Both the position numbers and the translations under genes were made by a program. This document shows, piece by piece, positions 27,016 to 59,827 of a DNA stretch of 64,000 nt. A model generated the notes under the pieces. That model searched no databases and had not been told where the DNA came from. It saw only the letters and a list, made by a program, of their open reading frames with translations. Position 1 is the stretch's first letter, and the number at the start of each line of letters is the position of its first letter. The DNA is from an uncultured bacterium (GTDB lineage Bacteria > Patescibacteriota > Microgenomatia > UBA1400 > UBA12108), in contig CAXCDZ010000001.1 of assembly GCA_963981525.1 (NCBI GenBank), positions 11,217-75,216 of the forward strand, written 5' to 3'.

Positions 27016-28943
<1,928 letters not shown>

Positions 28944-29717
28944 TTACTTAAGAAGATCGTAGACAAAACGAACTAGGCCAGAGTGAATCTTGTGAAGGGA
29001 GAGGTGGATGGGGGTAGCACCGTTTCTTGCCAGGGCAATATCTCCCTCATCCATGAGTTTGCGTCTGCCTGTTTGTGATTTGCTATTTTGCTGATCTCGA
29101 AAGCCGGAGAGGGCCACCTTGAGATCATGTGGCTTGTAGTGCTTGCTCATCCTTAGCCAGTAATCGTAGTCCATCACGTAGTGGTACTTATCATTAAACT
29201 CACCTATCTTCTCGTAAACTCGTCGAGACCAGAAAGTAGAAGGCTGCGGTAACATCGAGTCGGCAACCATGAGAGTAGTTCTGGAATATATGGCCATAAG
29301 AAAGCGTTTGTAGCCAGAAATTATCCAGTTGTTTTTGCTAACCTCACCCTTCTCGTTAATAACCAAGCAATCCCCCGTAATCCAGTCAGCACCTGTGCGG
29401 GCGTAATACTCCCCCACTCTCTTGAGGGTGCCGGTGAGATAGATGTCATCAGAATTAAGATATGCTAAGACATCACCTGACGTGAGCTTGAGACCTTTGT
29501 TAATAGCATCAGTCTGTCCCTGATCTTTTTCACTAACCCACTTGAGCTTGTTTCCGTAACTTTTGAGGATCTTAACAGTGTCGTCAGTGCTGCCTCCATC
29601 GATTACGAAGTATTCTAGGTTCTTGTAGCCTTGTGAGAGGACGCTATCGATCGTATCTTTGATGTACTGACCCTGGTTGTAGGAAGGGGTGATAATACTG
29701 ATCTTGGGAAGCTTCAT
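28944..29717 (-). CDS. Glycosyltransferase family 2
   Basis: 'PKISIITPSYNQGQYIKDTIDSVLSQGYKNLEYFVIDGGSTDDT' and 'LNSDD'. Confidence 0.8.
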   Translation of the reverse strand: MKLPKISIITPSYNQGQYIKDTIDSVLSQGYKNLEYFVIDGGSTDDTVKILKSYGNKLKWVSEKDQGQTDAINKGLKLTSGDVLAYLNSDDIYLTGTLKRVGEYYARTGADWITGDCLVINEKGEVSKNNWIISGYKRFLMAIYSRTTLMVADSMLPQPSTFWSRRVYEKIGEFNDKYHYVMDYDYWLRMSKHYKPHDLKVALSGFRDQQNSKSQTGRRKLMDEGDIALARNGATPIHLSLHKIHSGLVRFVYDLLK

Positions 29718-30046
29718 TTGGAGTCTGCTTGCTTAATTGCCTTGTCTCTCACTACCTTCTCAAGCTTTTGTCTGAGCTTATTGATTTGGATGCGATTCTC
29801 AATTAGAAGTGCATAGGATCCCATAAAGGCAAATATTACAATCACGTCTGTGAGGCGATTAACCTCGAATATCCTTCTGAGAAAGTTAGCTGATGACTCG
29901 ACAGCTACAATGATGCCCAGGGCAAATAGGCTTAACAACCATGACATTGCCTCTACTTTTGGGAGTTCACCTTTTTTGTAGTGAATCCTCACGACATACA
30001 TCATAAACAAGATGAATAGGACCGACAAGATTTGGATTCCTAGCAT
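29714..30046 (-). CDS. Small membrane protein, DUF2304-like (GT2-associated)
   Basis: 110 aa, 3-4 TM, followed by a charged coiled tail. Sandwiched between two GT2 genes as in DUF2304 contexts. Confidence 0.45.
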   Translation of the reverse strand: MLGIQILSVLFILFMMYVVRIHYKKGELPKVEAMSWLLSLFALGIIVAVESSANFLRRIFEVNRLTDVIVIFAFMGSYALLIENRIQINKLRQKLEKVVRDKAIKQADSK

Positions 30047-30047
30047 T

Positions 30048-30710
30048 TTACCTCCATAGCCAATATGGCAATTTAATTAGTATTCTAACAGCGTCTAGCA
30101 TATTAAAGCCATACTCCTTACCATGATAAACTGTACTGATAGGGATCTCAGTGAAGTTAAGGTTGCCTTTGGCAATCCTGACAGCGATCTCTGTCTCTAC
30201 CTCATAACCTGCTGAATGCCAGATAATTTTGCGATAAGCTGAGCGAGTCATAGCCTTGAAACCAGAGGGGATATCGGCAATGTAATGGCGAAAAAGAAGA
30301 TTGATGAGAATGGAGATACTTTTGTTACCAAGAACTCTCATTAATGGCATCTTGGCATCTAGCTGACGAACACCTAAAACTATGTCCGCTCCTTTATTAA
30401 GTGCTTGCTTGAAATGCTTGAGATCTCCCACCTCATGCTGATCATCACCGTCCATAAAAATGACTGCATCGGCACCCATTTTTTTGAAAGCATATTGGCA
30501 GCCTGTTTTCATTGCAGCCCCCTTGCCTAGGTTTACCATGTGAGAGAGGCACTTGACGCCGCGCTCCCTGACTATCTTCCTGGTGTTGTCCAAGCTACCA
30601 TCGTTGACTACGATGATGTTTTTTTTGCCAACCCCAGCTTCGAGCTTAGTTAGAAACCTCCCAATATACTTGGCCTCGTTATAGGCGGTAATAATGACGG
30701 CAATCTTCAC
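30048..30710 (-). CDS. GT2, DPM1/polyprenol-phosphate glycosyltransferase-like (short, no TM)
   Basis: 'IAVIITAYNEAKYIGRFLTKLEAG...IIVVNDGSLDNT...VIFMDGDDQHEVGDL'. Confidence 0.7.
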   Translation of the reverse strand: MKIAVIITAYNEAKYIGRFLTKLEAGVGKKNIIVVNDGSLDNTRKIVRERGVKCLSHMVNLGKGAAMKTGCQYAFKKMGADAVIFMDGDDQHEVGDLKHFKQALNKGADIVLGVRQLDAKMPLMRVLGNKSISILINLLFRHYIADIPSGFKAMTRSAYRKIIWHSAGYEVETEIAVRIAKGNLNFTEIPISTVYHGKEYGFNMLDAVRILIKLPYWLWR

Positions 30711-32347: not shown

Positions 32348-32349
32348 GA

Positions 32350-34194
32350 TTATTCTGGGCTACAACTATTTCTAAATGAAGGATTGTTTTCTAGTTCATG
32401 AGTAACAACATCGTCCAAATCATGCACTTCGTGGAGAAGAAGAGCTTGACTCCAAGACTTGCCAGCGAATTTACGAATTGAGGCAAGATCATTTATTGGA
32501 GTAGAAATAGTCAGGATTTTTCTAGCATCTTGTGTGCGGTATTTCTCACAAGCCAGATCTTTGATGTTGGCGTGTCTTAACTCGTATTTACCTGCCTGGA
32601 CTAGATGAGAGAAACCAAAATCATCGGGGGCATTGCGGATGCCGCTCTGAACTTCGCTTGTAGTAAGGTCGCCATAAAAATATGGGGCAAGTGGCCCATG
32701 AAGTTCAGTGTCAATAATGTAGTCATAATCAGATGAGACGCTCTTGACGTAGCCAAAAACGTCACGTGCGTCACTGGTCCACATGAGATCATTGCTATGA
32801 GTAAAGACAAGGAAGTAGTGACTGAGTGACTGAGCGACAAAAAACAAGATAATCAAGAGATAGCCAAATAAGAGGGGGATAGCATAGCGCTTGAGATATT
32901 TCCCAGCCCAAGTGAACAACCCCTTGATGCCGATGCCAATAATGAGGGAGATAATATATAGGGCGATAAGAGCCATTCGCATGTTGATATTGTTAGCTAG
33001 AGCGGCGGGAATGAGAGAGATTAAGATTGTAACTGCATAGAAAAAATAGAGGGAATCCTGAGGATTTAGCTTATTTAACTTGTTTCTAACAAGTGACTCA
33101 AGGAATCTTTTGCATGCGTATCCAATCGAAAACAAGCCAACTAAAAAGAGTGGGAGTATTGGGTAGAGGAAGGCGCCGTAACTCGCGTCAAAGCCATACT
33201 CACTCTCAGCCTGCAAAAATAGATAATCAGATCCGAGATAACGGTAATAGGTTTTGCCAATGTTAGTTAGTTTCTCAACTGGTTTGTTCCAGAGTCCGTA
33301 GCAAAACTGGGACTTATCAGCGTTTCGCATAAAAGAGAGATAACAGTATTGCCTCTTCTCGTCGATCTCTAGAGTTGCACCTTCTGCGGACTTATTATTG
33401 TAGTACTCGAGTCGGTTGAGGCCCTTGCTAGACGTCAGATCACCTATCCAGCCGAGGCCAATGAAAAGGAGGGCGAGAATAAGCAGGAGGGATTTTTTGA
33501 GTTTGCTAATAAGTGGCCATGACTGGACCAGAGTTGCTATGATAATTGTGAGGATTGCAATGTAGCGAATAGAGGCATACCAATATCCAGCAAGACCAAG
33601 CATGACAGCTGCGAGAATCCATAGTCGGGAATCCTTGGCTCTAGTGAGAGTTGCACGCGTAATGAGCCAGATCCCAACTGCAAAAAATGCCATCGCACTA
33701 AATGCCTCGTAGAAGATCCGAGACATATCAAAGTGCCAAGGACTAAAAGCAAGAACAAAAACAGCAAATAAGAGACCCCATTTACTTCTCTTACCCCAGA
33801 GTTCTTTGAGCGTGAGATAGAGCATGAGGAGACTCACTACACCTGCGACTGCAGAAGGAAGATGAGTAACTAGGTTATCCATACGGCCGAGGACCTTGCT
33901 CCAAAATGCCATGGAATAGACCAATCCAGGCGCCTTCCACTCCCCGAATGCCTCAAAAACTAGTGGCCAGGGCTTGTTCCAGGTATCTCTACCGGTCTCG
34001 GCAATTGCCTTTGCGTCGGCGGCAAAACCCACCTCGTCGATGTGGAGGCCGGGGGGAGTACTACCGAGCTGGTAAAAGCGAGAAAATAGGATGGCAAAGA
34101 GAACAAGGATAACGAGGAAATATTTGGAGAGGGAGGAGAGTTTTTGCATATAGATCATTATACCTAGTTTTGGACGACGACCCATTTCTGGCAA
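32350..34194 (-). CDS. GT-C fold glycosyltransferase, ArnT/PMT_2 family
   Basis: 'GLHIDEVGFAADAKAIAETGRDTWNKPWPLVF...KAPGLVYSMAF'. Start may be the internal Met (~34158) to avoid a 31-bp overlap. Confidence 0.7.
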   Translation of the reverse strand: MPEMGRRPKLGIMIYMQKLSSLSKYFLVILVLFAILFSRFYQLGSTPPGLHIDEVGFAADAKAIAETGRDTWNKPWPLVFEAFGEWKAPGLVYSMAFWSKVLGRMDNLVTHLPSAVAGVVSLLMLYLTLKELWGKRSKWGLLFAVFVLAFSPWHFDMSRIFYEAFSAMAFFAVGIWLITRATLTRAKDSRLWILAAVMLGLAGYWYASIRYIAILTIIIATLVQSWPLISKLKKSLLLILALLFIGLGWIGDLTSSKGLNRLEYYNNKSAEGATLEIDEKRQYCYLSFMRNADKSQFCYGLWNKPVEKLTNIGKTYYRYLGSDYLFLQAESEYGFDASYGAFLYPILPLFLVGLFSIGYACKRFLESLVRNKLNKLNPQDSLYFFYAVTILISLIPAALANNINMRMALIALYIISLIIGIGIKGLFTWAGKYLKRYAIPLLFGYLLIILFFVAQSLSHYFLVFTHSNDLMWTSDARDVFGYVKSVSSDYDYIIDTELHGPLAPYFYGDLTTSEVQSGIRNAPDDFGFSHLVQAGKYELRHANIKDLACEKYRTQDARKILTISTPINDLASIRKFAGKSWSQALLLHEVHDLDDVVTHELENNPSFRNSCSPE

Positions 34195-35942
34195 AACTCA
34201 GCTCGATTCATGGTCTCTAGATCAAAGTCTGAGTGAGTGGTGGGGTGAACATAATTATTTAGCTCATCACTGTCACAGAGCTGATCACCAATGATACGAC
34301 GCAGTTCACCACTATCTAAGGAAGATACGAGAGAGCGAGGAGAATTAGTTGAAGATATCAGTGATACAGATGGACAAGCAAGAGAGCGCTCAATGGAATC
34401 AAAGCGAATAATAGCTGTGTCATAATCCTCAAGATCTTCTGGACATCGATTGGTTATCGTGAGGTTCTGATACTGATAGTTGTCGTCGTCAGATGGGCTG
34501 TAGCCATTATTAAAGCTAGTGATCAGCTCACTAGTGATATCCTGATTGACTAGGACGATGTTGCTATAAACATACCTCGGCTGATTATCGATAATAAGAA
34601 TCTTGACGTTAGGAGATAATCTGACATAGTTGGCAAGCAAGCGCTCATCAAAAAAGTGAGCTTGCGCATTCTCAATCGGAGCAGTGAACAGATAGTGATA
34701 GGCAAAGTTGAGAGTAGAAACACCAAATAACACAGCAAAAACGTAAGGATATATCTTGAATATGATCTTAGATTTCTGCTTGAGATAAATGTAGATGCCA
34801 TAGATGCCGTAGGCCAGAACAATATTGAGGATTACTAGATATATTGCTGAGCGAAAGGCCATAGAGTCGTTGAGATGTATCACAGTCGCTGTGGGGGAGA
34901 GGATGAGCAAGAGCAGAATAAGGAGGTGGGGACGAGAGTGACGGACTAGAAGATGTCCTATGCCATAGAGCATGAATGGGAGTGTAAAGGGATAAAAATA
35001 ACCCATCCCAGCTGAGAACACCCCCATGGTTTCGCCGTGAATAAACAATAATTGAGGAGAGATAAGAGTAAGATATTTGTCTCTGATAAGCATCAATAAG
35101 CTGAGATATTTGTTGCTGAATATCTGTTTGGCAAATTCGGGAGCTAGGGAGAGTGTACGCTCAGCATTGACTCCACCACCCAATCTATCGATGTTGGTGA
35201 AGATGAGCTCACTGCTCCGCCCTCCATAACTGTCGTAGTTAGTGATGGTGCGGATGAAGAGAAATGCGATCCAGGAGATGGCAGGTAGATAGTCTGTCCA
35301 ACGACGCTTGGACTCTGCAAAGAAAGCAAGATAAATCAGATAAACTCCAGTTAACATGGGGAGAGCGAATTTGTATCCATGATAAGTAAAAAATCCGATA
35401 GCAAAGGTCATAAAAAAGCCTATGAGGGAGAGTGGGGATAGTTTGCGTTGAGAAAATAGAGCCAGACATACCCATGAGGCTAGATACCAAAAGAGTGAGG
35501 TAGGTTGCTCGAGAGCGGTACGAGAGAAGATCACATGCCATGGGGAAAGATACAGAAGAATAGCAGTAATAATAGCGATAGGTCGCTTAACTCTGATAAG
35601 TAGTAGCCAAATAAGGACTAGCAGAGGAGTAAGAGAGCTATAGATAACGGTCATAAGGCGAGAACTTGCGGGAGACTGGGGTAAGAAGCTTAGAGTGGGA
35701 GTGTTGATGAGTGGGCCAAGCTCAGACATGGTCCCGGTGTTGGGCAAGAAAGAGAGTGGATGCCAAGAACCCTCGATGTCACGCCCAATTTCTATCACAG
35801 CGTGGGCCTGGATGACGTTGTCGATCTCATCATGAGACAAAGAAACTGGGACTGTGTTGAGATAGCTAAGGCGAAGGAGTAACCCTATGATAACCGAGAT
35901 GACAAGTATTATGAGAGGCTTCCTGTATTTCATAAGTGACAT
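34164..35942 (-). CDS. GT-C fold glycosyltransferase, ArnT/PMT_2 family
   Basis: ORF track extends to 36251, but that overlaps the upstream gene by 300 bp. Start re-set to 'MSLMKYRKPL' (ATG at 35940-35942). 'LSHDEIDNVIQAHAVIEIGRDIEGSWHPLSF' DE loop. Confidence 0.65.
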   Translation of the reverse strand: MSLMKYRKPLIILVISVIIGLLLRLSYLNTVPVSLSHDEIDNVIQAHAVIEIGRDIEGSWHPLSFLPNTGTMSELGPLINTPTLSFLPQSPASSRLMTVIYSSLTPLLVLIWLLLIRVKRPIAIITAILLYLSPWHVIFSRTALEQPTSLFWYLASWVCLALFSQRKLSPLSLIGFFMTFAIGFFTYHGYKFALPMLTGVYLIYLAFFAESKRRWTDYLPAISWIAFLFIRTITNYDSYGGRSSELIFTNIDRLGGGVNAERTLSLAPEFAKQIFSNKYLSLLMLIRDKYLTLISPQLLFIHGETMGVFSAGMGYFYPFTLPFMLYGIGHLLVRHSRPHLLILLLLILSPTATVIHLNDSMAFRSAIYLVILNIVLAYGIYGIYIYLKQKSKIIFKIYPYVFAVLFGVSTLNFAYHYLFTAPIENAQAHFFDERLLANYVRLSPNVKILIIDNQPRYVYSNIVLVNQDITSELITSFNNGYSPSDDDNYQYQNLTITNRCPEDLEDYDTAIIRFDSIERSLACPSVSLISSTNSPRSLVSSLDSGELRRIIGDQLCDSDELNNYVHPTTHSDFDLETMNRAEFCQKWVVVQN

Positions 35943-35950
35943 TATATAGA

Positions 35951-37075
35951 TTAAGCGACAAAACGACCTATGGCAAATAGTGAAAACAAAGATATTAGTC
36001 CCAAAAGAGAAATAAGCTGCATAAGGAATAAATTTCTCTTGCTTAGTTTGCGCGCGAGAATGTAATAGACCGGAAAGATCACAAGAACATATCGGGGGAG
36101 TGAGGTGAGTGATCCTGTCAAAGTCGGAATTAGGAGGGCGCCGAGCGCGAATATTAGCTGAGAGAAAGGAATGAGTTTGTAGCCAATTGCTAGAATACTG
36201 CCAAAGGCTGCCAGAGAAAATAACTCCAGGAGCGAACGGAAATAAACCCAACTGGCTGGCTCGACAGTGAGGAGGATCTTGAGATATCGATAAATAACCT
36301 GAGGGAGAGTGATCAATCTACTATCGTACCTATCAACTCCAAACATGGGTAGTACGCGCATAAACATCAAGGGATCAGCGAAGTCCCGGTAGAGATATCC
36401 CATGTAGAGCATCAAGCCGCTGAGCGAGATGGCGAGTAGTCCGAAGATTCTAAAAATCTTGATCTTATGACCCGACTCTTTTGCATGCAAAATCATCTCT
36501 ACGAGCAAACTAAGTGAGAGCAAGCAACCAATAACTCTAGTGCCAGAGGCAATCCCTGCAAGAATTGCTGCTGCTAACCAATGCTTCTTCTTGACCATAT
36601 AGAAAAACCAAATGGAGAGAGCGAGAAAGAGCGACTCGCTATAGACGCCAAGAAAATAAAAACTAGTTGGGAAAAATAGCATACAGCCAATGGCTAACAG
36701 CTTATGGTGGGGAAATAAGCGGTAGATACCAAATATAGCAAATATGAGAGTAATGATACTAATCATGACCCCGGCAAATAATGGTGAAGGGGTGATGGGG
36801 GTGAGAGCTCTAATCATGAGTGGGTAGACTGGGAAAAAGGCTTGAGTGCCGGTATCTTGATAGCCGTAACGCGCAATGCGCAAGTAATGAATGCCATCAA
36901 AGTGTGCAAAAACTGAGGAGGCTCGAGAGTAGTGAGAAGTGAGTTCTGCTTGATAATAGGGGAACTCAATATTGAGATCCCTTTTGAGGGAATAGTTGAG
37001 AGTAAGGGAGATTATCCCTAGCCAAACTATAACAATGAGACCTAATCTAGTTAGTGTTGGTAAGTACTTTTCCAT
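35951..37075 (-). CDS. PIG-V/Gpi18-like (GT76-like) mannosyltransferase-family membrane protein
   Basis: 'FDGIHYLRIARYGYQDTGTQAFFPVYPLMIRAL' matches the PIG-V 'D..HY..IA..GY....AFFPLYPL' signature. ORF track start 37246 trimmed to 'MEKYLPTL' (~37075). Confidence 0.55.
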   Translation of the reverse strand: MEKYLPTLTRLGLIVIVWLGIISLTLNYSLKRDLNIEFPYYQAELTSHYSRASSVFAHFDGIHYLRIARYGYQDTGTQAFFPVYPLMIRALTPITPSPLFAGVMISIITLIFAIFGIYRLFPHHKLLAIGCMLFFPTSFYFLGVYSESLFLALSIWFFYMVKKKHWLAAAILAGIASGTRVIGCLLSLSLLVEMILHAKESGHKIKIFRIFGLLAISLSGLMLYMGYLYRDFADPLMFMRVLPMFGVDRYDSRLITLPQVIYRYLKILLTVEPASWVYFRSLLELFSLAAFGSILAIGYKLIPFSQLIFALGALLIPTLTGSLTSLPRYVLVIFPVYYILARKLSKRNLFLMQLISLLGLISLFSLFAIGRFVA

Positions 37076-38090
37076 AAACTTCGTATGTAGCTCTAGCTGT
37101 TTTTTCCCAACTAAAATTCCTGGCGCGAGCTTGCCCTTGTGAACTGAGTTTTTTTCTTGCCCGACTATCCCGAAGAAGCATCTTGAGAGAATCGAGTAAT
37201 TCCTTTTTGCTGTGAGGATCAAAATATGCGACTGACTTACCGCCAACCTCAGGCAGACTGCCCTGATTGCTTGTGAGGACGGGGCAGCCCTGATTCATGG
37301 CTTCGAGGATGGGGAGTCCGAACCCCTCGTACCATGAAGGCTGAACATACAGGGTGGCATGCGCGTAGATATATGGCATGTGGTGAGTGGGGATGTAGCC
37401 GAGCATCTTGATCCGATTTTTGGCAGGAGAGGCGGCAATGAGTGACTCGATCTCCCGATACTCTGGGATATCGGGCTTGTCAGAGAATACTTTGCCGACA
37501 ATGACGAGGTGGAGGTTGGGTTTGTTGAGTTGGGAGAAGGCATTGATAAGTCCTTTGACATTTTTGTTCCAATTGATGTCCCCTACGTACAGTAAATAAC
37601 GTGGAGGGAGGCTGTATTTTTTGATAATTGGCGAGTTGAGAGTGGCTGTTTTTCTGATTATGATAGGGGCTAGGGGAACGACAGTGATCTTGCTCTCTGG
37701 CACATTCATGATCTCCTGGATATCCCGGCTCGAAGACTCAGAATCAGTAATGATGTGGTTGACCCCTCTAAGGGAGCGTTTTTGAAGATTGTATTTGAGG
37801 CGGCCACGCAGTCCAGGAGGGAAATGAGAGGCAAATTTGAGTGGAATGAGATCATGAATTGTGACAATCGTGGGTAGAGGTTTTCTGTGAGGTAGGGTTA
37901 AGAAGTGTGGGTCAAAAAATGGAAAGTGAACTAGATCAACTGAATCATGGTAGCAATTACCATCTTTTGCCAGAAACGTTGAGTCAGGAAAATTCTGCTG
38001 GAGAGCCCTGAGTAGCTCTCTAGTATAGACCCCTACCCCCCTAGTTTGTGAGGCTGAGGAAAGCGGCGCAAGACTGATTGCGACTTTCAT
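37047..38090 (-). CDS. Glycosyltransferase family 4
   Basis: 'YVQPSWYEGFGLPILEAMNQGCPVLTSNQGSLPEV' is the canonical GT4 EX7E motif. Confidence 0.85.
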   Translation of the reverse strand: MKVAISLAPLSSASQTRGVGVYTRELLRALQQNFPDSTFLAKDGNCYHDSVDLVHFPFFDPHFLTLPHRKPLPTIVTIHDLIPLKFASHFPPGLRGRLKYNLQKRSLRGVNHIITDSESSSRDIQEIMNVPESKITVVPLAPIIIRKTATLNSPIIKKYSLPPRYLLYVGDINWNKNVKGLINAFSQLNKPNLHLVIVGKVFSDKPDIPEYREIESLIAASPAKNRIKMLGYIPTHHMPYIYAHATLYVQPSWYEGFGLPILEAMNQGCPVLTSNQGSLPEVGGKSVAYFDPHSKKELLDSLKMLLRDSRARKKLSSQGQARARNFSWEKTARATYEVYGKVLTNTN

Positions 38091-39697
38091 TTCTTCCTAT
38101 CCCTTGTGAGAACATATAGAACTGAGATAATCGAGCCCAAGCTAATAATGTTAGCTATGCTCTCAATATTGGAAGATCCAACGTAAACTCGATAATCATG
38201 AGTTCCTGGATTGAGCATGAGACTGATAGTGCCATCGTCTCTTGGTGAAAGAAGATCGTCAGAGTTATCTCCCTCAACTTGAACGTGCCAGGAAGGGAAA
38301 TAGTTTCTGAGGATCGTTAACTCCCCGATCTCTTCTTTGTTGTTGGCGGTAAAAGTGATGTTGGTGGGAGTCGCAACGACACCCTCCAGAATAATGTTGC
38401 CTGAGCTAACAAGAACATCGTCTGATTTGTAACGAACATCCTGAGGTGACCACATCGGGAGAATCTCGGTGCGGAATGTTGTGGCAGTTTTGGTCAAGTA
38501 CAATGTGTAGAGAGAGCCAAACTCTTCTTCGTTTAGAAATTGGATTGGCCTCCTGTAATTGCGCACATTAAAAAGAGCAAGGCCTAGAAAGATTGTAATC
38601 AAGATGATCTGGAGTTTTTTGGACTTGAAACTAGAGAGAAACACGAAGGCAATGAGAGGGGCAAGAAGCGTAGTGAGGAATAAAAATCTCCAGGGAAATT
38701 GGACAGTTTGTAGGAGAGTAAGAGAATCCCAGATATAGAATGAACGAGAACTCATCATAAAAACTGTAAAGAAAAATGCGAAGACTAGAAAAATATTTTT
38801 TCTTGTCCTCTTCTTTAGAGCAACAAAGATTGTGGTGAGGGCAACTACAATAATTTGAGCCAGACCCAGTTGGAACGAGACCCCATCACCTGGTCCCGGC
38901 AATGAATACCAGTAGTCCCATTTACCATACAAAAACTGCTTTAGGTAAACGAAGTGTTGATCGAACCGGAAAGTAAAGTCTTGGTTGTGAAAAGAGTACA
39001 ACATAGTTCTCTCAACAATCATGGGAAGGAGAAAGAATGCGGCAAGACCCAGGCTGAGCGCGAACGAAAGCAATGCTCTTTTGGAAAATAGCTTGGCAAA
39101 AAACAAATAGGCAATAAGAAAAGCCATGAAAAGGAGGCCGAGGAAATTGTGGGCAATCAAGAGAAGGGCAAGTGGGAGAGAGTGATACCATCTGAGAGCT
39201 TTTTGGTGGCTAAGATCATGAAAACTTACTAAAACCCAGGGAATAATTCCCATTGCAACGACTTCGCCTAGAGCGCCGCGAACAAAAATATTAAGAAATT
39301 GATATGGAGTTGCTAGATAGAGAGCTGCTGAGAAGAAAGCGAGCATCTTGTTCTCTCTGGCAAATAGCTGGTAGATACCGAGTCCGCCGATGAGATAACT
39401 AACAAGAAGAATTAGTTTTACTGCCAAAACGGAGCTCATACCCGACAAGATCAGGGCTGTGGAGAGATAGTAAGGAAGTGGATAAATAAAGTTAAAAAGA
39501 GGAATGCCATAACCTTCATCAAAATTGCCAGCCCATCTGAGAGGGAACTGTCCTGACTTGAGCATTTTGACAGCTTCGTCTGCTCGTAGGATATGAAAAA
39601 CTCCATCGTGAGAGGCGAACCAACCAGGATTAAAAAGTGAAGAAGCAAGGATTAAACCTAGAATAATCAGAATTACTGGGAAGAGATACTTCTTCAT
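38087..39697 (-). CDS. Polytopic membrane protein, GT-C-like (paralog of 50982..52514)
   Basis: 'SHDGVFHILRADEAVKMLKSGQFPLRWAGNFDEGYGIPLFNFIYPLPYYL' is shared with 50982..52514. DE present in first loop. Confidence 0.5.
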   Translation of the reverse strand: MKKYLFPVILIILGLILASSLFNPGWFASHDGVFHILRADEAVKMLKSGQFPLRWAGNFDEGYGIPLFNFIYPLPYYLSTALILSGMSSVLAVKLILLVSYLIGGLGIYQLFARENKMLAFFSAALYLATPYQFLNIFVRGALGEVVAMGIIPWVLVSFHDLSHQKALRWYHSLPLALLLIAHNFLGLLFMAFLIAYLFFAKLFSKRALLSFALSLGLAAFFLLPMIVERTMLYSFHNQDFTFRFDQHFVYLKQFLYGKWDYWYSLPGPGDGVSFQLGLAQIIVVALTTIFVALKKRTRKNIFLVFAFFFTVFMMSSRSFYIWDSLTLLQTVQFPWRFLFLTTLLAPLIAFVFLSSFKSKKLQIILITIFLGLALFNVRNYRRPIQFLNEEEFGSLYTLYLTKTATTFRTEILPMWSPQDVRYKSDDVLVSSGNIILEGVVATPTNITFTANNKEEIGELTILRNYFPSWHVQVEGDNSDDLLSPRDDGTISLMLNPGTHDYRVYVGSSNIESIANIISLGSIISVLYVLTRDRKK

Positions 39698-40515
39698 TAG
39701 TTCCAGTCTTTTGCGATGCTTGGTTTGGTCGCAGTTTTTGAGAATTCCCAGTACTTAATGTAGGAAGATCTCAAATGAAGTCCAGAATAATAGGCAAAAA
39801 CAAAACCAGGAAAACCATCCTGAAAACCTTTGTGGCGAAGATAGATCTCGAGGAATCTAACAATAGGCTTAACCAGCATGTAGTTAAGAATAGTTGGTGT
39901 GTCGAGTTGCAACTTGCCTTGTTTGAGCCATTCCTCAGCTTGGAGAGTAGTGTAACGATTGCTGCGCAAGAGATAGCGAGAGAAGTTGGGGTCGGCAATG
40001 TGAAGGAGATCTTCTACCAACTGCCCGGTCATGCCATCTACCTCCATGAGTTCGTGAACATTCTTCTGTGGGAGCTTAGCCTTACCCTTCTGAAAGAGTC
40101 TGATGACCGGATCGGGATACATGCCACCCTTGTTCATCCAGCGACCGAGGAAATAGTTGCGACGATTGAGTTGGAAGGCGGCAGGTTGGGTGGTGGGATC
40201 TAGAGAGATCACTCTCGAGATCTCTTTGGCGAGCATGGAGCTCACTCTCTCGTCAGCATCTAACTGAAGAATCCAGGGGTTAACACAAGCGTCAATTGCG
40301 ATCTGCTTGTTGATGTGAAAGTTGGTGCGGTTGGGTTCGGTAATAACTCGCGCTCCATACTCGGCAGCTATCTTGACGGTATTATCAGATGAGGAGCCGT
40401 CTACGATAATAATCTCATTGGCAATCTCCCTGATACTTACAAGACAATCCCCGAGAGTACCCTCTTCGTTATAGACTGCGAGGGCAATTGAGAGAGCTGG
40501 TTTGGTTGGTTGCAT
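39697..40515 (-). CDS. Glycosyltransferase family 2
   Basis: 'LSIALAVYNEEGTLGDCLVSIREIANEIIIVDGSSSDNT' and 'QLDADE'. Confidence 0.8.
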   Translation of the reverse strand: MQPTKPALSIALAVYNEEGTLGDCLVSIREIANEIIIVDGSSSDNTVKIAAEYGARVITEPNRTNFHINKQIAIDACVNPWILQLDADERVSSMLAKEISRVISLDPTTQPAAFQLNRRNYFLGRWMNKGGMYPDPVIRLFQKGKAKLPQKNVHELMEVDGMTGQLVEDLLHIADPNFSRYLLRSNRYTTLQAEEWLKQGKLQLDTPTILNYMLVKPIVRFLEIYLRHKGFQDGFPGFVFAYYSGLHLRSSYIKYWEFSKTATKPSIAKDWN

Positions 40516-52514: not shown

Positions 52515-52517
52515 ATC

Positions 52518-55910: not shown

Positions 55911-57419
55911 TTATTCTTTCTCGATATTTATTGTTCCCACATATGTATCATAGGAGATTCTTTCGTTTTGTACCATAACCCTTTTTTGACTAAACTCATT
56001 TATCTGAGGGTGTCCCAGATATTCAGCAATTGAGGGATGGGTGGGACCAGTCAGGAAAAGTAGGGTGGTAGTCTCCTCGTCGCTCGAGCAGGGACCCCTC
56101 TCACAGATGACATATACAAGATCCTGGAGATCATTTTTGGGAGGGTTATCAGAGAGGGAGAGGTAGTACTGGATTGTTGTTATTGATGAACCTTGAGCAT
56201 TGACTGTGTTGTAGGGACGATTGTTGGCTTGAGAAAGTATATAGTCTGAGATCTCAACTGCCCTCTCTACCTGGATAGATGATTTACTGCGCAGATTGTA
56301 GATCAGAGTAGGATAGCTCCAGATAAGTAATCCCGCGAGGAAGATGACGCTAATCGCTCTAACCACTGGTCTGGCTCTAGTAGCAAGCGCTCCAAACATA
56401 AGTGCAATAGTGGGAAAAAGATGTGAGACATAGTGTACGTTTATGTTTTCTCGAAGAAAAGAAATAGTGATTATTGTGCCTATCAAGAAAAACCAAAGCT
56501 GCTTGAGATCTTTGGAATGCTTGTTTCGTCGCTTGAACAAGGCAGGAAAGAGGAGAAGGAGAAAGCTCGCTGAGTTTACTAAGCTAGATGGGACTTCTTT
56601 GAGCGCGATTGATTGGCTTCCAACAATACCTTTGGATACCATCACAATATTATTCTTGACCCTTTCAAGATAACCTGGCCCCACACTGTTTTCTGCTTTT
56701 TTGGAGACTAGATACTTAAAGAAAGCTTGAGTATTCACAAAATCATGTCGAAGCTCAAAAGCCCAGAATGGAGCTGTGACAATAACAAACCCAGATACGA
56801 TAAGTAAAATGCGTTTGATTAATTCTTTTTTTGGAATTATTTTTATATCTTGCTTGAGTAGAGCGAGAGCAGTCAAGACTACCATGATGAGAGCGACATA
56901 ATGGAGCTGAAAGAGAGCGCCGGCATAGAGTCCCAAAATAAACCACTTCCACCGCCCAACATAATCAAAAACAAAGAGAAGAAGGACTGAGAAAAAAGGC
57001 ACTAAATTGGGATTCCAGGAAGATCTAGAGTAATGGAGCATGACTGGGGACAACGCGTACATAAACCCTGCAACTAAGCCACCCCAAAACCCGAATTTCT
57101 TTTTTCCCCAAGAAAAAATAAGAAAGGTGGTTGCAACTCCGAACAGACCTACCATAATTGCTGGACCAGCTGGATGCATCTGAGAGATGAGAAGAGCAGG
57201 TGTAATAAGGTAGTAATAGAGAGGGCCCAAGTACATATTGCCCACAGAAGTCTCTGGACCCAGGAGGATTGGGGTCTTGTTGTCTATCATGCGTTTGGCG
57301 ATCAAGACATCCCTGGCCTCATCACCCTGAAAGATAAATGTCTGGTCTATCCTGTATAGATGTGTAAAAGAAGAAACTAGGAGAAGAATGATCGTCAGAA
57401 TGGTAAAAAGTTTTTTCAT
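55911..57419 (-). CDS. GT-C fold glycosyltransferase, ArnT/PMT_2 family
   Basis: 'HLYRIDQTFIFQGDEARDVLIAKRMIDNKTPILLGPETSVGNMYLGPLYYY'. Confidence 0.7.
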   Translation of the reverse strand: MKKLFTILTIILLLVSSFTHLYRIDQTFIFQGDEARDVLIAKRMIDNKTPILLGPETSVGNMYLGPLYYYLITPALLISQMHPAGPAIMVGLFGVATTFLIFSWGKKKFGFWGGLVAGFMYALSPVMLHYSRSSWNPNLVPFFSVLLLFVFDYVGRWKWFILGLYAGALFQLHYVALIMVVLTALALLKQDIKIIPKKELIKRILLIVSGFVIVTAPFWAFELRHDFVNTQAFFKYLVSKKAENSVGPGYLERVKNNIVMVSKGIVGSQSIALKEVPSSLVNSASFLLLLFPALFKRRNKHSKDLKQLWFFLIGTIITISFLRENINVHYVSHLFPTIALMFGALATRARPVVRAISVIFLAGLLIWSYPTLIYNLRSKSSIQVERAVEISDYILSQANNRPYNTVNAQGSSITTIQYYLSLSDNPPKNDLQDLVYVICERGPCSSDEETTTLLFLTGPTHPSIAEYLGHPQINEFSQKRVMVQNERISYDTYVGTINIEKE

Positions 57420-58123
57420 GAGTTGAGTCTTTTCCAGAGAACAAAACTCTCCCTAAGGGCACGAAGAATTACTCTGGGATTACTGCCAGTCTGGATGCCC
57501 ATCTTACGCTCATAATGGTTGATTGGTGTCTGATGGATGGTGGCCCCATTTCTAATAAGTTTCGTCATGAGCTCAGTGATGGTGATAGCGCTGCTGGTCT
57601 CAAGAGTGATGTTGTCTAGCAGGTTCTTGGGGATTAGTTTGTATGCACAGTCCACATCCTTGAGGCGGAGACCAAACAGAAGCAGGTTCCAGTATTTGAG
57701 TAAAACTTGAGCAAGGATAAGGCGCAATAAAGGATCTCTTCTCTTGTGGCGATAGCCAATAACTACGTCTGCTTGATCGCGCAGTGAGATGAAGTGGGGG
57801 AGTTCGTCAAACTGAAATTGTCCGTCAGAGTCAGTAAAAAAGACCCAGTCATACTGAGCTTCTTTGAGGCCGGTCTTAATAGAAGCTCCGTAGCCAAGAT
57901 TCTTGGGATGGGAAACCAATTTCACGAATGAGTGCTTCTTGGCATACTCTGCAACCAGTAGAGAGGTGTCGTCGCTGGAGCCATCATCAACTACAATGAT
58001 CTCGTATTTGTCTGATACTTTTTGGATATATTTGGCGGCGTCGGCGAGAGTTTTTTTGATATTCCCGGCCTCGTTGTAGGCAGGAAAGAAGACTGTGAGT
58101 TCTTTTAGCTTATCTCTAATCAT
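57416..58123 (-). CDS. GT2, DPM1/polyprenol-phosphate glycosyltransferase-like
   Basis: 'LTVFFPAYNEAGNIKKTLADAAKYIQKVSDKYEIIVVDDGSSDDT...GYGASIKTGLKEAQYDWVFFTDSDGQF...VVIGYRHKRRD'. Confidence 0.8.
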   Translation of the reverse strand: MIRDKLKELTVFFPAYNEAGNIKKTLADAAKYIQKVSDKYEIIVVDDGSSDDTSLLVAEYAKKHSFVKLVSHPKNLGYGASIKTGLKEAQYDWVFFTDSDGQFQFDELPHFISLRDQADVVIGYRHKRRDPLLRLILAQVLLKYWNLLLFGLRLKDVDCAYKLIPKNLLDNITLETSSAITITELMTKLIRNGATIHQTPINHYERKMGIQTGSNPRVILRALRESFVLWKRLNS

Positions 58124-58156: not shown

Positions 58157-59827
58157 TTATTGTTTTCTCATGTAGAGACTGATTGTTGTGGAGTCATAGA
58201 TGAGCTCAAACTGCACCGGAGAAGAGAGTGCGCGAACTGCATCTTCTGTGCCCCATTCTGTTTTGTAGATGTAGTAATAATCGGCGGGCACTGAAGTTAT
58301 ACTACCACCTTTGTACTTGTTGACTACATCTAGGCGAGGTTGATAACTAGAGTTGAGAACCATCAGTTGATCTGTGTCTAGATAATAAGTGTATTTCTCG
58401 GCAAGGGCAGGAATAACTGCGTTTCTGTGAACAGGGTTATTAACATAAACTATTCCCGGAGGAGCTTCCTTGAGCACACTGAGAGCTTCTAGCTCTTCGT
58501 TACCAATAATTTCTTGATCTGCCGTAAGAAAGCGGAGTTGCTCGAGATTGTTGGGAATCGTAAAGATAATAATCAAAAAAATGATTAACCAACTGCCTCG
58601 CCATTTTGAGTGAGCTAGATCAGACAACCACTCTACCAAAAGTATCCCTGAAAGCCAGGCTCCGTAATAAAGAAACTGCATGGTGTTGTACCAGCCGCCA
58701 TTTTGCACAAACAAGATCGGTGCCAGAACGGTCAATAAAATTGTAAATGAGATTGCTTGATAAAATGGAGACAATTTCTTCTTGAAGATTGAGGAGGCCA
58801 CATATATCCCCGCCAGAATGCGAGTCCCAAAATTGATAAGGAGAAATAGTCCGAGAGAGTATGCTTCGATTGCCCATAATCTGGGGGAGAAGCTAGTCGC
58901 ATTCTCATAGAGATGGTACCTGGCGAGCGTCAAGCTATGGTTGTAAAAGAGGAGGGAGTCGTCTATCAATAAGTGAGTCAGTGCAAGTGGTGCCCAACTA
59001 AATGGAATGCTAGAACCTGAGGAAACTCCATAAAAAACGAGCAGACCTAGAAAACTACCAGTGATTATCAATAATGCTTGAGTAAGAAAATCTCTCAATG
59101 CAAGCCTTTTCCCAACAAACTCTAGCAATTTGAAAATAGAAGTAAATAGGAGAGCTACAACTCCGCCATAGAACTTGAGACCAAAAAGAACGAAAAACAG
59201 AATTCCGAGGATGATGGATTGTCTTTTTTGATCCTTGCGGTTAATAAGCATGATGATCCAAAGGATGACTGAGAGCGAGAAGGCAAACTGAAGATTGAGA
59301 AACATAGTGGCAGGCTGAATGGAGGTTACAACTGGGAAGCCACGCAGAGACGAGTAGAAAAAAGTGCGATCCTGATAGAGGGTTGCGAGATAACTAAAGG
59401 AACTACCAAAATATAAGAAAAAGGCAAGAAGATTGGCTTTGAGAAGGTTGGATGTTCTAGTTTTAATAAAACGAAGAACGCTCCATATATATAAGAGTGC
59501 AGCAATAATTGGAAGAAGTTGGAAAAAGCTAAAGAAAGGTGAGATTCCTAGCCTGCTCAAAAGATGAAGGATATAATCCAAGAGAAAGTTGTAACTGGAG
59601 AGTGATTCGCCCGCCATAAGAGGATTCTGGAGCGGCCAACTCCCAAAACCAAGTTTTGCGAGACTGATATGCCAGAGAGAGTCATGCAGATGCCACTGAC
59701 CAATCTGAAGATTGCAGATCCCCGTTGTGCAATGCATAAAACCATTTGGAAGAATAAATGATAGAGAGAGAAACGCAAAGAAAAACGACTGAATAACTAA
59801 CCACTTATTGAGTCTAAGTTTCTTCAT
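58157..59827 (-). CDS. Uncharacterised polytopic membrane protein, 'C..C / HxHD-WH' family (paralog of 61025..62680)
   Basis: 'HCTTGICNLQIGQWHLHDSLWHISLA...GESLSSYNFLLDYIL', 'QNGGWYNTMQFLYYG'. ORF track start 60028 trimmed to 'MKKLRLNKWL' (ATG 59825-59827) so that it does not run through the divergent gene. Confidence 0.5.
   Translation of the reverse strand: MKKLRLNKWLVIQSFFFAFLSLSFILPNGFMHCTTGICNLQIGQWHLHDSLWHISLAKLGFGSWPLQNPLMAGESLSSYNFLLDYILHLLSRLGISPFFSFFQLLPIIAALLYIWSVLRFIKTRTSNLLKANLLAFFLYFGSSFSYLATLYQDRTFFYSSLRGFPVVTSIQPATMFLNLQFAFSLSVILWIIMLINRKDQKRQSIILGILFFVLFGLKFYGGVVALLFTSIFKLLEFVGKRLALRDFLTQALLIITGSFLGLLVFYGVSSGSSIPFSWAPLALTHLLIDDSLLFYNHSLTLARYHLYENATSFSPRLWAIEAYSLGLFLLINFGTRILAGIYVASSIFKKKLSPFYQAISFTILLTVLAPILFVQNGGWYNTMQFLYYGAWLSGILLVEWLSDLAHSKWRGSWLIIFLIIIFTIPNNLEQLRFLTADQEIIGNEELEALSVLKEAPPGIVYVNNPVHRNAVIPALAEKYTYYLDTDQLMVLNSSYQPRLDVVNKYKGGSITSVPADYYYIYKTEWGTEDAVRALSSPVQFELIYDSTTISLYMRKQ

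What the first reader, a model, noticed from the sequence alone, without database searches (positions are those of the whole stretch)
35951..37075. Two bacterial PIG-V/Gpi18-like (GT76-type) membrane proteins
35951..37075 and 59859..61028 carry the 'HY..IA..GY....AFFPVYPL(M)IRA' signature of eukaryotic GPI mannosyltransferase II. That enzyme is a dolichol-P-mannose-dependent GT-C. Its presence beside DPM1-like synthases supports mannose-type transfer from polyprenol-P-mannose and is unusual for bacteria.
Basis: partly seen in the sequence, partly recalled or inferred. Interest (0 to 1): 0.5.

Follow-up and report, generated by a model that had tools for sequence, protein, structure and literature searches.

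The report
Two PIG-V-like bacterial membrane glycosyltransferases
Two genes in a very large cell-surface sugar gene cluster of an uncultured Patescibacteria bacterium encode small membrane enzymes that probably add sugars outside the cell from lipid-linked donors; one is a real but distant relative of the eukaryotic GPI-anchor enzyme PIG-V, and because such relatives are common in bacteria the finding is correct but ordinary.

Summary
Both ORFs exist. A is 35951-37075 on the minus strand (374 aa). B is 59859/59871-61028 on the plus strand (389/385 aa). A carries the full motif FDGIHYLRIARYGY-x6-AFFPVYPLMIRA. B carries only FDG...AHYPGFPLMIRA, with a 16-residue insertion.

Neither protein hits Pfam directly. 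Half of A's relatives pass the PF04188 threshold. A's family profile matches real vertebrate PIG-V (hhalign 98.4%, E 5e-15; up to 81 bits), but only over the N-terminal ~190 residues. The C-terminal halves show no similarity. B is a sister family of A (hhalign 99.5%), and its own link to PIG-V is weak.

A sits in a cassette conserved across Microgenomates: GT2, membrane protein, GT4, A, PpgS-like GT2, DUF2304, GT2. B sits next to a near full-length homologue of archaeal dolichol-phosphate-mannose synthase.

The family is large: about 20,000 clusters at 50% identity and at least 571 GTDB species. IMG already names relatives "Gpi18-like mannosyltransferase", so "unusual for bacteria" is wrong. 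Mannose is plausible for B but unproven. The acceptor is unknown, and nothing points to GPI.

Verdict: new members of a known kind, of low to moderate interest.

The parts
35951..37075 (-). Protein A, 374 aa: small GT-C-fold glycosyltransferase, distant PIG-V/Gpi18 relative (COG5542-type 'Gpi18-like'). Invariant D60 lies in the first outside loop, within FDGxHY.
59871..61028 (+). Protein B, 385 aa (389 aa from the alternative ATG at 59859): small GT-C-fold glycosyltransferase, sister family of A. Invariant D50 lies within NFDG.
37047..38090 (-). GT4 (GT-B fold, cytoplasmic, nucleotide-sugar dependent) glycosyltransferase. Its stop overlaps the start of A by 29 nt. It is the conserved upstream partner of A.
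   Evidence: Pfam Glycos_transf_1 3.6e-33. A homologue is present in 70 of 78 related loci and lies immediately upstream on the same strand in at least 44. Same arrangement in L007 and L008.
38087..39697 (-). PTPS_related (PF10131) polytopic membrane protein, a frequent member of the A cassette.
   Evidence: Pfam 2.5e-11. Homologue in 36 of 78 loci, either before the GT4 or between GT4 and A.
39697..40515 (-). GT2 glycosyltransferase (272 aa), first gene of the conserved A cassette.
   Evidence: Pfam Glycos_transf_2 2.1e-17. Homologue in 55 of 78 loci.
34164..35942 (-). 592-aa polytopic membrane protein starting 8 nt after the stop of A. It has no family hit and is probably one of three extra GT-C-like genes inserted here between A and the synthase trio.
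   Evidence: ORF and start. No Pfam or NCBIfam hit. Homologues in 17 of 78 loci.
30048..30710 (-). Short GT2 (220 aa) of the polyprenyl-phosphate-sugar synthase type (AglJ/PpgS/DPMS-like). Candidate maker of A's lipid-linked donor.
   Evidence: NCBIfam AglJ 1.9e-29 and PpgS 9.7e-28, both below cut-off. PDB: 5mlz DPMS 4e-10, ArnC 3e-8. Homologue downstream of A in 46 of 78 loci.
29714..30046 (-). 110-aa small membrane protein of the DUF2304 type, partner of the short GT2 (as Rv3632 is to PpgS).
   Evidence: phmmer hits in 28 of 78 loci. The matching genes in L007 and L008 carry PF10066 DUF2304. Analogy from PMC3485146.
28944..29717 (-). GT2 (257 aa), last gene of the conserved trio.
   Evidence: Pfam 4.4e-28. 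Homologue in 35 of 78 loci.
62682..63857 (-). GT2 catalytic domain fused to a GtrA/DPMS 4-helix membrane domain: Dol-P-Man-synthase-type polyprenyl-phosphate-hexose synthase, convergent with the B operon. Candidate maker of B's donor.
   Evidence: Pfam PF00535 + PF04138. PDB 5mlz P. furiosus DPMS E 4.3e-41, residues 8-346 vs 23-349. Conserved next to B in L001-L006.
61025..62680 (+). 551-aa polytopic membrane protein, translationally coupled to B (ATGA overlap). Function unknown.
   Evidence: ORF. Overlap. No family hit. Conserved after B in L001-L005 but not in L006.
58157..59827 (-). 556-aa paralogue of the 551-aa protein, divergently transcribed from B.
   Evidence: BLASTP 30% identity, E 1e-60. 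Gene call of 556 aa in L001.
57416..58123 (-). Short GT2 (235 aa) of the ArnC/GtrB/DPMS type, paired with the PMT_2-like GT-C at 55911..57419.
   Evidence: Pfam 6.7e-28. PDB ArnC 4e-15, DPMS 6e-10, GtrB 2e-8.

Best explanation
A and B are two paralogous small (about 10-11 helix) GT-C(A)-fold glycosyltransferases. They belong to a Patescibacteria (Microgenomates/Woesebacteria-like) bacterium and sit in a 64-kb cluster devoted to cell-surface glycan synthesis.

Each most likely works at the outer face of the cytoplasmic membrane. It would take one sugar from a polyprenyl-phosphate-sugar and transfer it, with inversion, to a growing lipid-linked or wall/S-layer-linked glycan. The invariant Asp of the first outside loop (D60 in A, D50 in B) would act as catalytic base.

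The donor would be made on the cytoplasmic side by a neighbouring DPM1/GtrB-type GT2: the PpgS/AglJ-like GT2 with its DUF2304 partner for A, and the DPMS-like GT2-GtrA fusion for B. It would then be flipped across the membrane. For A, the translationally coupled GT4 probably builds the cytoplasmic part of the acceptor.

Shown:
- the fold;
- homology of A's N-terminal half to PIG-V;
- the A-B relationship;
- the invariant Asp;
- the conserved gene neighbourhoods.

Inferred:
- catalysis and topology;
- which synthase serves which GT-C;
- the sugar (mannose about 0.35-0.45 for B, less for A);
- the acceptor (unknown; no evidence for GPI).
For: Fold:
- AF2 models have pLDDT 94.7 and 93.2, pTM 0.93.

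Homology:
- A1 vs vertebrate PIG-V: 98.4%, E 5.3e-15 over 192 columns. D60 aligns with D67, AFFPvYPL with AFFPgFPL, YtESLF with YSEsLF, and TRvvG with VRSNG.
- HMM scores reach 80.9 bits.
- PF04188 is passed by 34 of 68 relatives, best 1.7e-13.
- A vs B: 99.5%, E 3.5e-23 over 276 columns.
- Only A and B among all window ORFs match either profile.

Catalytic Asp:
- F59-D60-G61 is invariant in 68 sequences and D50-G51 in 52 sequences.
- It lies in the 63-66-residue loop after TM1.
- This is the same place as D58 of PimE, the catalytic base at the tip of JM1, with Y at +4 as in A (PMC12041525).

Context:
- GT4 directly upstream of A in at least 44 of 78 loci and present in 70.
- The short GT2 is present in 46, DUF2304 in 28 and GT2_257 in 35.
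- The B block is conserved at 66% and 49% identity.
- 62682..63857 matches DPMS 5mlz at E 4e-41.
- The logic of three-component GT2 + flippase + GT-C systems is established (PMC11127046; PMC3485146).
Against: - No direct Pfam hit for either protein.
- No solved relative by sequence.
- No member of either family has, to my knowledge, been characterised experimentally. A literature search for PF04188, 'Gpi18-like' and COG5542 found nothing on bacterial members.
- The second acidic residue of the PIG-V 'D/ExE' motif is absent in both: I62 in A, I52 in B.
- Assigning a particular synthase to a particular GT-C rests on proximity only. The window holds at least 13 GT-C-type genes and at least 5 short GT2 synthase-like genes, so the pairings are ambiguous.
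- The sugar is not identifiable from sequence.
Confidence: 0.75

Rival explanations
1. A and/or B are true functional equivalents of GPI mannosyltransferase II. They would add an alpha-1,6-mannose from polyprenyl-phosphate-mannose to a Man-GlcN-phosphatidylinositol-type glycolipid, as part of a GPI- or PIM-like anchor pathway in this bacterium.
For: - The N-terminal half of A is homologous to PIG-V, including the catalytic-loop motif.
- A is translationally coupled to a GT4. From general knowledge, GT4 is the family that holds PIG-A and PimA/PimB. The pair GT4 then GT-C therefore mirrors GPI and PIM synthesis.
- A DPMS-like synthase is in the window.
Against: - The C-terminal halves of A and B show no similarity to PIG-V (E 0.34 and 0.075).
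- A and B are 100-120 residues shorter than PIG-V.
- The second acid of the D/ExE motif is missing (PMC6056205).
- The GT4's best solved relatives are Tll1590, MshA-type and maltose-1-phosphate synthase enzymes, with no PimA or PIG-A signal.
- No inositol-lipid or other GPI-pathway gene was seen in the window.
- The donor synthase conserved next to A is PpgS/AglJ-like rather than clearly a mannose synthase.
Confidence: 0.04
2. They are GT-C enzymes as in the best explanation, but the sugar moved is not mannose. It could be GalNAc/GlcNAc, glucose, a uronic-acid-derived pentose or a deoxyhexose. In that case 'mannosyltransferase' is only an inherited name.
For: - The short GT2s score comparably on ArnC (Ara4FN), PpgS (GalNAc), AglJ/hexose and PgfS models, all far below cut-offs.
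- 57416..58123 is closest to ArnC in the PDB.
- The A cassette carries the PpgS + DUF2304 signature of the mycobacterial GalNAc system.
- The B block is followed by three epimerase/dehydratase genes and a UDP-glucose 6-dehydrogenase.
- A GDP-fucose-synthase-like gene and GalE are in the window.
Against: - The synthase next to B matches a proven Dol-P-Man synthase over nearly its full length, about 34 orders of magnitude better than it matches ArnC.
- The nearest characterised sequence relative of A, PIG-V, is a mannosyltransferase.
Confidence: 0.5
3. One or both proteins are catalytically inactive GT-C-fold proteins that bind or present a lipid-linked glycan (like PIG-U in the GPI transamidase), or they act as a polymerase or ligase rather than a single-sugar transferase.
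For: - There is no large periplasmic domain.
- Function is untested.
Against: - The first-loop Asp that PIG-U lacks is invariant in both families, together with the surrounding motif (PMC6056205).
- Lipid-phosphate-sugar synthase genes are close by.
Confidence: 0.07
4. The PIG-V resemblance is a chance match of hydrophobic, compositionally biased membrane sequence.
For: - No direct Pfam hit.
- Identity to PIG-V is only 18-25%.
Against: - E 5.3e-15 profile-profile.
- 80.9 bits HMM-to-sequence.
- The reciprocal PIG-V HMM ranks A first of 74 window ORFs.
- 34 of 68 relatives pass the curated PF04188 threshold.
- The aligned columns are the polar loop motifs, not only the helices.
- The fold is confirmed independently.
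Confidence: 0.01

Closest known systems
PIG-V / Gpi18, GPI mannosyltransferase II (CAZy GT76, Pfam PF04188 Mannosyl_trans2)
   Same: - GT-C fold with about 10 helices.
- Homologous N-terminal about 190 residues.
- The first-loop motif (W/F)D-x3-(F/Y)L-x-IA-x2-GY...AFFPxxPL is shared, as are YSE(S/A)LF and (T/V)R-x2-G.
- Half of A's relatives pass the PF04188 threshold.
- A lipid-phosphate-sugar donor is expected.
   Different: - The window proteins themselves do not hit PF04188.
- No similarity in the C-terminal half.
- 374-385 aa against about 430-490 aa.
- The second acid of D/ExE is absent.
- The host is a bacterium with no known GPI.
- B reaches PIG-V only weakly.
Bacterial 'Gpi18-like mannosyltransferase' proteins as named by IMG/JGI (COG5542 from memory), uncharacterised
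   Same: Relatives at 50% (P0003) and 70% (P0122) identity carry exactly this name. They have the same size and motifs. This is the group the two proteins belong to.
   Different: Nothing substantive. The group has no experimentally defined member that I could find, so the name says nothing tested about sugar or acceptor.
PimE (GT87), mycobacterial polyprenyl-phosphate-mannose-dependent alpha-1,2-mannosyltransferase of PIM synthesis
   Same: - A small bacterial GT-C(A) enzyme of similar size (383-residue chain).
- Catalytic Asp at the tip of the first juxtamembrane helix, with a Tyr four residues later (D58/Y62 in PimE, D60/Y64 in A).
- Acts after cytoplasmic GT4 enzymes.
- Some relatives give weak PF09594 hits.
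   Different: - No sequence-level match of A or B to PimE in the PDB search.
- The GT87 Pfam hits are at threshold and occur in a minority: 9 of 68 and 7 of 52.
Three-component extracytoplasmic glycosylation systems (GtrA/GtrB/Gtr*, ArnC/ArnT, PpgS-Rv3632-Rv3779)
   Same: - The same logic and parts: a DPM1-type GT2 makes the polyprenyl-phosphate-sugar, a small membrane partner or GtrA domain follows, and a GT-C transfers the sugar outside.
- The window has the GT2 + DUF2304 pair and a GT2-GtrA fusion.
   Different: - The GT-C components belong to other sequence families.
- Here many GT-C genes and several synthases are pooled in one 64-kb cluster rather than one tidy triplet.
- The pairings are inferred.
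NCBIfam NF046093, AZOBR_p60025 family cell surface glycopolymer formation protein
   Same: It matches the N-terminal about 200 residues of B (E 6e-12) and weakly of A (E 0.003).
   Different: The scores of 45 and 17 bits are far below the cut-off of 150, so neither is a member.

Membership tests
GT76 / PF04188 (PIG-V, Gpi18) | Protein scores above the Pfam gathering threshold (22.4 bits) on PF04188 | tested here: not met
   hmmscan of A and B gives no family at E <= 1. Among relatives, 34 of 68 of A's family pass (best 1.7e-13, up to 43 bits) and 0 of 52 of B's family pass. As a control, a human PIG-V sequence recalled from memory scores 710 bits.
GT76 / PF04188 (PIG-V, Gpi18) | Homology to bona fide PIG-V demonstrable at profile level | tested here: met
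   For A: hhalign 98.4%, E 5.3e-15; HMM up to 80.9 bits; BLASTP 3e-6; the PIG-V HMM ranks A first among window ORFs. For B the link is marginal: 92.6%, E 4.6e-7, and third rank at E 0.058.
GT76 / PF04188 (PIG-V, Gpi18) | Collinear similarity over the whole protein, including the C-terminal half | tested here: not met
   hhalign of the C-terminal halves gives A vs PIG-V E 0.34 (probability 0.2%) and B vs PIG-V E 0.075. The full-length alignments stop at column 198-203.
GT76 / PF04188 (PIG-V, Gpi18) | Acidic 'D/ExE' motif between TM1 and TM2 (PMC6056205) | tested here: inconclusive
   The first acid is invariant and aligned (D60 of A and D50 of B with D67 of PIG-V). The second (E69 of PIG-V) is I62 in A and I52 in B, and it is variable in both families.
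GT76 / PF04188 (PIG-V, Gpi18) | Dol-P-Man : Man-GlcN-(acyl)PI alpha-1,6-mannosyltransferase activity on a GPI intermediate | not testable with these tools
   This needs enzymology or complementation. No other GPI-pathway gene was seen in the window.
GT-C(A) fold glycosyltransferases (Pfam clan CL0111) | Polytopic fold with the conserved N-terminal helix module and juxtamembrane helices in the first outside loop | tested here: met
GT-C(A) fold glycosyltransferases (Pfam clan CL0111) | Conserved catalytic Asp/Glu in the first extracytoplasmic loop | tested here: inconclusive
   An invariant Asp is present in a 63-66-residue loop after TM1. Equivalence to PimE D58 and others is inferred from position and motif only. 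No structural superposition was possible.
GT-C(A) fold glycosyltransferases (Pfam clan CL0111) | Use of a lipid-phosphate-linked sugar donor | not testable with these tools
   The only support is circumstantial: DPMS-, PpgS- and ArnC-like GT2 genes beside both.
IMG 'Gpi18-like mannosyltransferase' group of bacterial proteins | Close full-length homology to proteins so named | tested here: met
   P0003 has 50% identity and 100% coverage to A. P0122 has 70% identity and 98% coverage to B. Both are named 'Gpi18-like mannosyltransferase' by JGI.
GT87 / PF09594 (PimE, MptA-type) | Match to PF09594 above threshold | tested here: not met
   A and B give no hit. Only 9 of 68 and 7 of 52 relatives hit, at threshold level with best E 1.8e-5 and 5.2e-5. 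The PDB profile search does not find PimE.
NCBIfam NF046093 (AZOBR_p60025 family) | Score at or above the curated cut-off of 150 bits | tested here: not met
   A scores 17 bits and B scores 45.2 bits.

The most novel reading that the evidence does not exclude
The conserved Microgenomates cassette is GT2, PTPS-related membrane protein, GT4, PIG-V-like GT-C, PpgS-like GT2, DUF2304, GT2. It could build a membrane-anchored lipoglycan in the manner of mycobacterial PIM/LM or eukaryotic GPI: a cytoplasmic GT4 step, then flipping, then extracytoplasmic GT-C steps. The PIG-V-like family that is so abundant in Patescibacteria would then represent the prokaryotic stock from which eukaryotic GPI-MT-II was recruited.
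Probability: 0.1. Interest if true: 0.55.

Novelty: new member of a known kind. Interest (0 to 1): 0.25.

Why it matters
In itself it matters little. Small PIG-V-related GT-C proteins are abundant in bacterial genomes and metagenomes and are already labelled as such by one major annotation pipeline.

The useful residue is threefold:

1. Neither Pfam nor NCBIfam names these two proteins, and B's whole family has no PF04188 coverage. Model coverage of this branch of the GT-C clan is therefore incomplete.

2. A belongs to a gene cassette that recurs across Woese-, Davies-, Chisholm-, Gottesman-, Levy- and Pacebacteria. That points to a conserved, uncharacterised envelope glycoconjugate in ultra-small, host-dependent bacteria whose surface chemistry is essentially unknown.

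3. The N-terminal-only homology to PIG-V is a clean example of the GT-C rule: a shared donor and catalytic module joined to a variable acceptor module. It warns against transferring 'mannosyltransferase' or 'GPI' annotations to such proteins.

Tried and rejected
- Direct Pfam scan of A and B: no hit. NCBIfam gave only sub-threshold NF046093.
- Foldseek against afdb50 would have shown directly whether eukaryotic PIG-V models are the nearest annotated folds. The library was not available.
- The original PIG-V paper (PMID 15623507) is not held. The motif definition was taken from PMC6056205 instead.
- Literature searches for COG5542, 'Gpi18-like', PF04188, and for GT-C in Patescibacteria found no study of bacterial members.
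- I looked for similarity between the C-terminal halves of A or B and PIG-V, prompted by short collinear BLAST fragments such as QVIYRYL/QVLTRFL. It is not significant.
- I tested whether other window ORFs belong to the same family: none do.
- I tested whether the coupled GT4 looks like PimA or PIG-A: there is no such signal in the PDB hits.
- I considered that the 431-aa and 695-aa TTG ORFs overlapping A are real. I rejected this because public gene calls and the coupled ATG starts give 374 aa and 592 aa.
- The human PIG-V sequence used as bait was recalled from memory. It served only to fetch real database sequences, after Pfam validated it.
Full report
**What is there**

The window is an almost unidirectional 64-kb array of glycan-synthesis genes with no tRNA.

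At the stated coordinates there are two real genes.
- Gene A is 35951..37075 on the minus strand, 374 aa. The mechanical ORF list extends it to a TTG at 37246. However, an identical 374-aa product is called in a public assembly (P0001), and the ATG at 37075 overlaps the stop of the upstream gene by 29 nt.
- Gene B is 59859..61028 on the plus strand, 389 aa. Public calls use the ATG at 59871 and give 385 aa (P0121, found on at least 23 contigs).

A contains FDGIHYLRIARYGY-QDTGTQ-AFFPVYPLMIRA. B contains NFDGINFLIVAKSLY-(16-residue insertion)-SAHYPGFPLMIRA. The quoted signature is therefore fully present in A, with six rather than four spacer residues, and only partly present in B.

hmmscan of both proteins against Pfam returns nothing at E <= 1. 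NCBIfam returns only NF046093 ('AZOBR_p60025 family cell surface glycopolymer formation protein'), far below its cut-off: 17 bits for A and 45 bits for B, against 150. Taken literally, the refutation condition is met. Family-level evidence changes the picture.

**Family-level homology**

A has hundreds of relatives at 35-54% identity. Many carry a precomputed PF04188 hit, and some are named 'Gpi18-like mannosyltransferase' by JGI. B has relatives at 46-70% identity. None has a Pfam hit, yet several carry the same JGI name.

I aligned 68 sequences of A's family (A1) and 52 of B's family (A2).
- Of the A1 members, 34 of 68 hit PF04188 (best 1.7e-13). Fewer hit PMT_2 (10) or GT87 (9).
- Of the A2 members, none hits PF04188. 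Seven hit GT87 and two hit PMT_2 weakly.
- Where PF04188 is hit, it is profile positions about 52-250 of 443, that is the N-terminal half.
- A1 and A2 are clearly homologous to each other: hhalign 99.5%, E 3.5e-23 over 276 columns.
- Among all window ORFs of at least 100 aa, only A and B match either profile.

**Direct comparison with real PIG-V**

I wrote down human PIG-V from memory and checked it against Pfam (710 bits, full-length PF04188). I used it only as bait to fetch genuine database sequences named 'GPI mannosyltransferase 2'; the best is 97% identical. I then aligned 18 vertebrate sequences (A3).

Results for A:
- A1 vs A3 gives hhalign 98.4%, E 5.3e-15 over 192 columns. D60 of A falls on D67 of PIG-V, AFFPvYPL on AFFPgFPL, YtESLF on YSEsLF, and TRvvG on VRSNG.
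- The A1 HMM scores up to 80.9 bits on PIG-V sequences.
- BLASTP of A against the primate protein gives E 3e-6.
- A PIG-V HMM ranks A first among the 74 window ORFs.

Results for B:
- The link is marginal: hhalign 92.6%, E 4.6e-7, and 26.9 bits at best.
- B ranks third with the PIG-V HMM, behind an ordinary PMT_2-type gene.

The C-terminal halves of A and B show no similarity to PIG-V (E 0.34 and 0.075). The second acid of the PIG-V 'D/ExE' loop motif (PMC6056205) is not conserved in either family.

**Fold**

AlphaFold2 models built with these alignments are confident: A has pLDDT 94.7, B has 93.2, and both have pTM 0.93.

Both models begin with a transmembrane helix, followed by a 63-66-residue loop with short helices that carries the invariant Asp. 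In PimE the catalytic base D58 sits at the tip of the first juxtamembrane helix and is held by Y62 (PMC12041525). A has D60 and a nearly invariant Y64 with the same spacing. I could not superpose structures, so this equivalence is an inference.

**Neighbourhood of A**

- Upstream, and overlapping A, is a GT4. Before that come a PTPS_related membrane protein and a GT2.
- Downstream are three large GT-C-like membrane proteins.
- These are followed by a short AglJ/PpgS-like GT2, a 110-aa DUF2304-type protein and another GT2.
- After that comes a GDP-fucose-synthase-like gene.

In 78 related loci taken from GTDB species genomes:
- a GT4 homologue is present in 70, and lies directly upstream on the same strand in at least 44;
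- the first GT2 is present in 55;
- the PTPS_related protein in 36;
- the short GT2 in 46;
- DUF2304 in 28;
- the last GT2 in 35.

The cassette is thus conserved. In this window it has been expanded by extra GT-C genes. The short GT2 + DUF2304 pair recalls M. tuberculosis PpgS (Rv3631) and Rv3632, which make polyprenyl-phosphate-GalNAc for the GT-C enzyme Rv3779 (PMC3485146).

**Neighbourhood of B**

B is translationally coupled to a 551-aa membrane protein. It is divergent from a 556-aa paralogue of that protein (30% identity, E 1e-60). It is convergent with a GT2 fused to a GtrA/DPMS membrane domain.

That fusion matches Pyrococcus furiosus dolichol-phosphate-mannose synthase (5mlz) over nearly its whole length at E 4.3e-41, against about 1e-7 for ArnC. 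The whole block is conserved in relatives at 66% and 49% identity. It includes the two GT2/GT-C pairs upstream and, downstream beyond the window, three epimerase/dehydratase genes and a UDP-glucose dehydrogenase.

**How it most likely works**

These are the GT-C components of extracytoplasmic glycosylation of the three-component kind (PMC11127046).
1. A DPM1-type GT2 loads a sugar onto polyprenyl phosphate in the cytoplasm.
2. The lipid-linked sugar is flipped to the outer face.
3. The GT-C transfers the sugar to a glycan acceptor outside.

Shown: the fold, the homology, the invariant Asp and the synteny. Inferred: topology, catalysis, the synthase-to-GT-C pairings, and the sugar.

Mannose is reasonable for B because of the DPMS-like neighbour. 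The other short GT2s cannot be told apart from ArnC, PpgS, AglJ or GtrB types, and the surrounding nucleotide-sugar genes point to UDP- and GDP-derived sugars of several kinds. The acceptor is unknown. Because the acceptor-side half is unrelated to PIG-V, and no GPI or inositol-lipid gene is nearby, nothing supports a GPI-type acceptor.

**How common it is**

The A-family profile finds 19,939 clusters (at 50% identity) with E <= 1e-3, 14,421 with E <= 1e-10 and 5,339 with E <= 1e-30 among 1.84 billion representatives.

The best 80 include many records titled Patescibacteria or its Microgenomates lineages (Woese-, Davies-, Chisholm-, Gottesman-, Levy-, Pacebacteria). About half carry titles such as 'uncultured Pseudomonadales' or 'uncultured Gammaproteobacteria', which are probably mislabels. 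The claim that such proteins are unusual in bacteria therefore does not hold. They are common, already named by IMG, and uncharacterised.

**Verdict**

- Right: GT-C fold, PIG-V kinship of A, and DPM1-like neighbours.
- Not right: rarity in bacteria.
- Not established: mannose as the sugar.
- Not supported: any GPI-MT-II equivalence, for which the evidence here points the other way.

These are new members of a known, uncharacterised bacterial branch of the GT-C clan. Interest is low to moderate. The most useful by-product is the conserved Microgenomates cassette around A.

Noticed in passing
window 58157-59827 (-) and 61025-62680 (+): Two paralogous ~550-aa polytopic membrane proteins flank gene B (30% identity, E 1e-60). 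Neither has a Pfam or NCBIfam hit. They share an N-terminal 'H-x-HD-x2-WH ... YN(F/Y)LLD' region. The pair is conserved beside B in related genomes at 66% identity, while at 49% identity only the divergent copy remains.
   Followed up: partly
window 62682-63857 (-): A GT2 fused to a GtrA/DPMS four-helix membrane domain matches Pyrococcus furiosus dolichol-phosphate-mannose synthase (5mlz) over residues 8-346 at E 4e-41. This is an archaeal-type DPMS architecture in a Patescibacteria genome.
   Followed up: partly
window 28944-30710 (-): A trio of GT2 (257 aa), DUF2304-type small membrane protein (110 aa, 29714-30046) and short AglJ/PpgS-like GT2 (220 aa). It resembles the M. tuberculosis PpgS (Rv3631)/Rv3632 pair and recurs downstream of A-type genes in many Microgenomates genomes.
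   Followed up: partly
whole window, e.g. 11929-13479, 13489-15060, 30707-34194, 38087-39697, 40556-42172, 46292-47743, 50982-54005, 54024-55148, 55911-57419: Besides A and B, the window encodes at least eleven further GT-C-type or GT-C-like membrane proteins. Seven hit PMT_2, two hit PTPS_related, one hits DUF2142 and one is MptA_B-like by precomputed Pfam. Several are each preceded by a short DPM1-type GT2. The window also holds two Wzx-like flippases (6943-8229, 49535-50998). This is an unusually dense concentration for a small genome.
   Followed up: partly
window 15057-16040, 18580-19764, 23911-24759, 27987-28943: Sugar-modifying genes are scattered through the cluster. There is a bona fide GalE (376 bits, above cut-off), an RfbH-like PLP aminotransferase/dehydratase, an FkbM-type methyltransferase and a GDP-fucose-synthase-like reductase (290 bits, below cut-off). 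Together they suggest amino, deoxy and methylated sugars in the product.
   Followed up: no
loci L009-L088 (GTDB records): About half of the closest relatives of A (38 of 80 loci) sit in MAGs titled 'uncultured Pseudomonadales' or 'uncultured Gammaproteobacteria'. Their gene content and named relatives are Patescibacteria. These are probably record mislabels.
   Followed up: no
locus L002 4286-5957: In one metagenome the 556-aa gene beside B is split into 364-aa and 195-aa pieces. This could be a frameshift or an assembly error in an otherwise identical neighbourhood.
   Followed up: no
loci L011, L012, L031, L057 (downstream of the A-type gene): In some related genomes a B-like paralogue (E 1e-31 to 1e-36 to B) lies close downstream of the A-type gene. 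It is directly adjacent in L011 and L057, overlaps by longest ORF in L012, and is about 1.7 kb away in L031. The two subfamilies can therefore occur in tandem.
   Followed up: no
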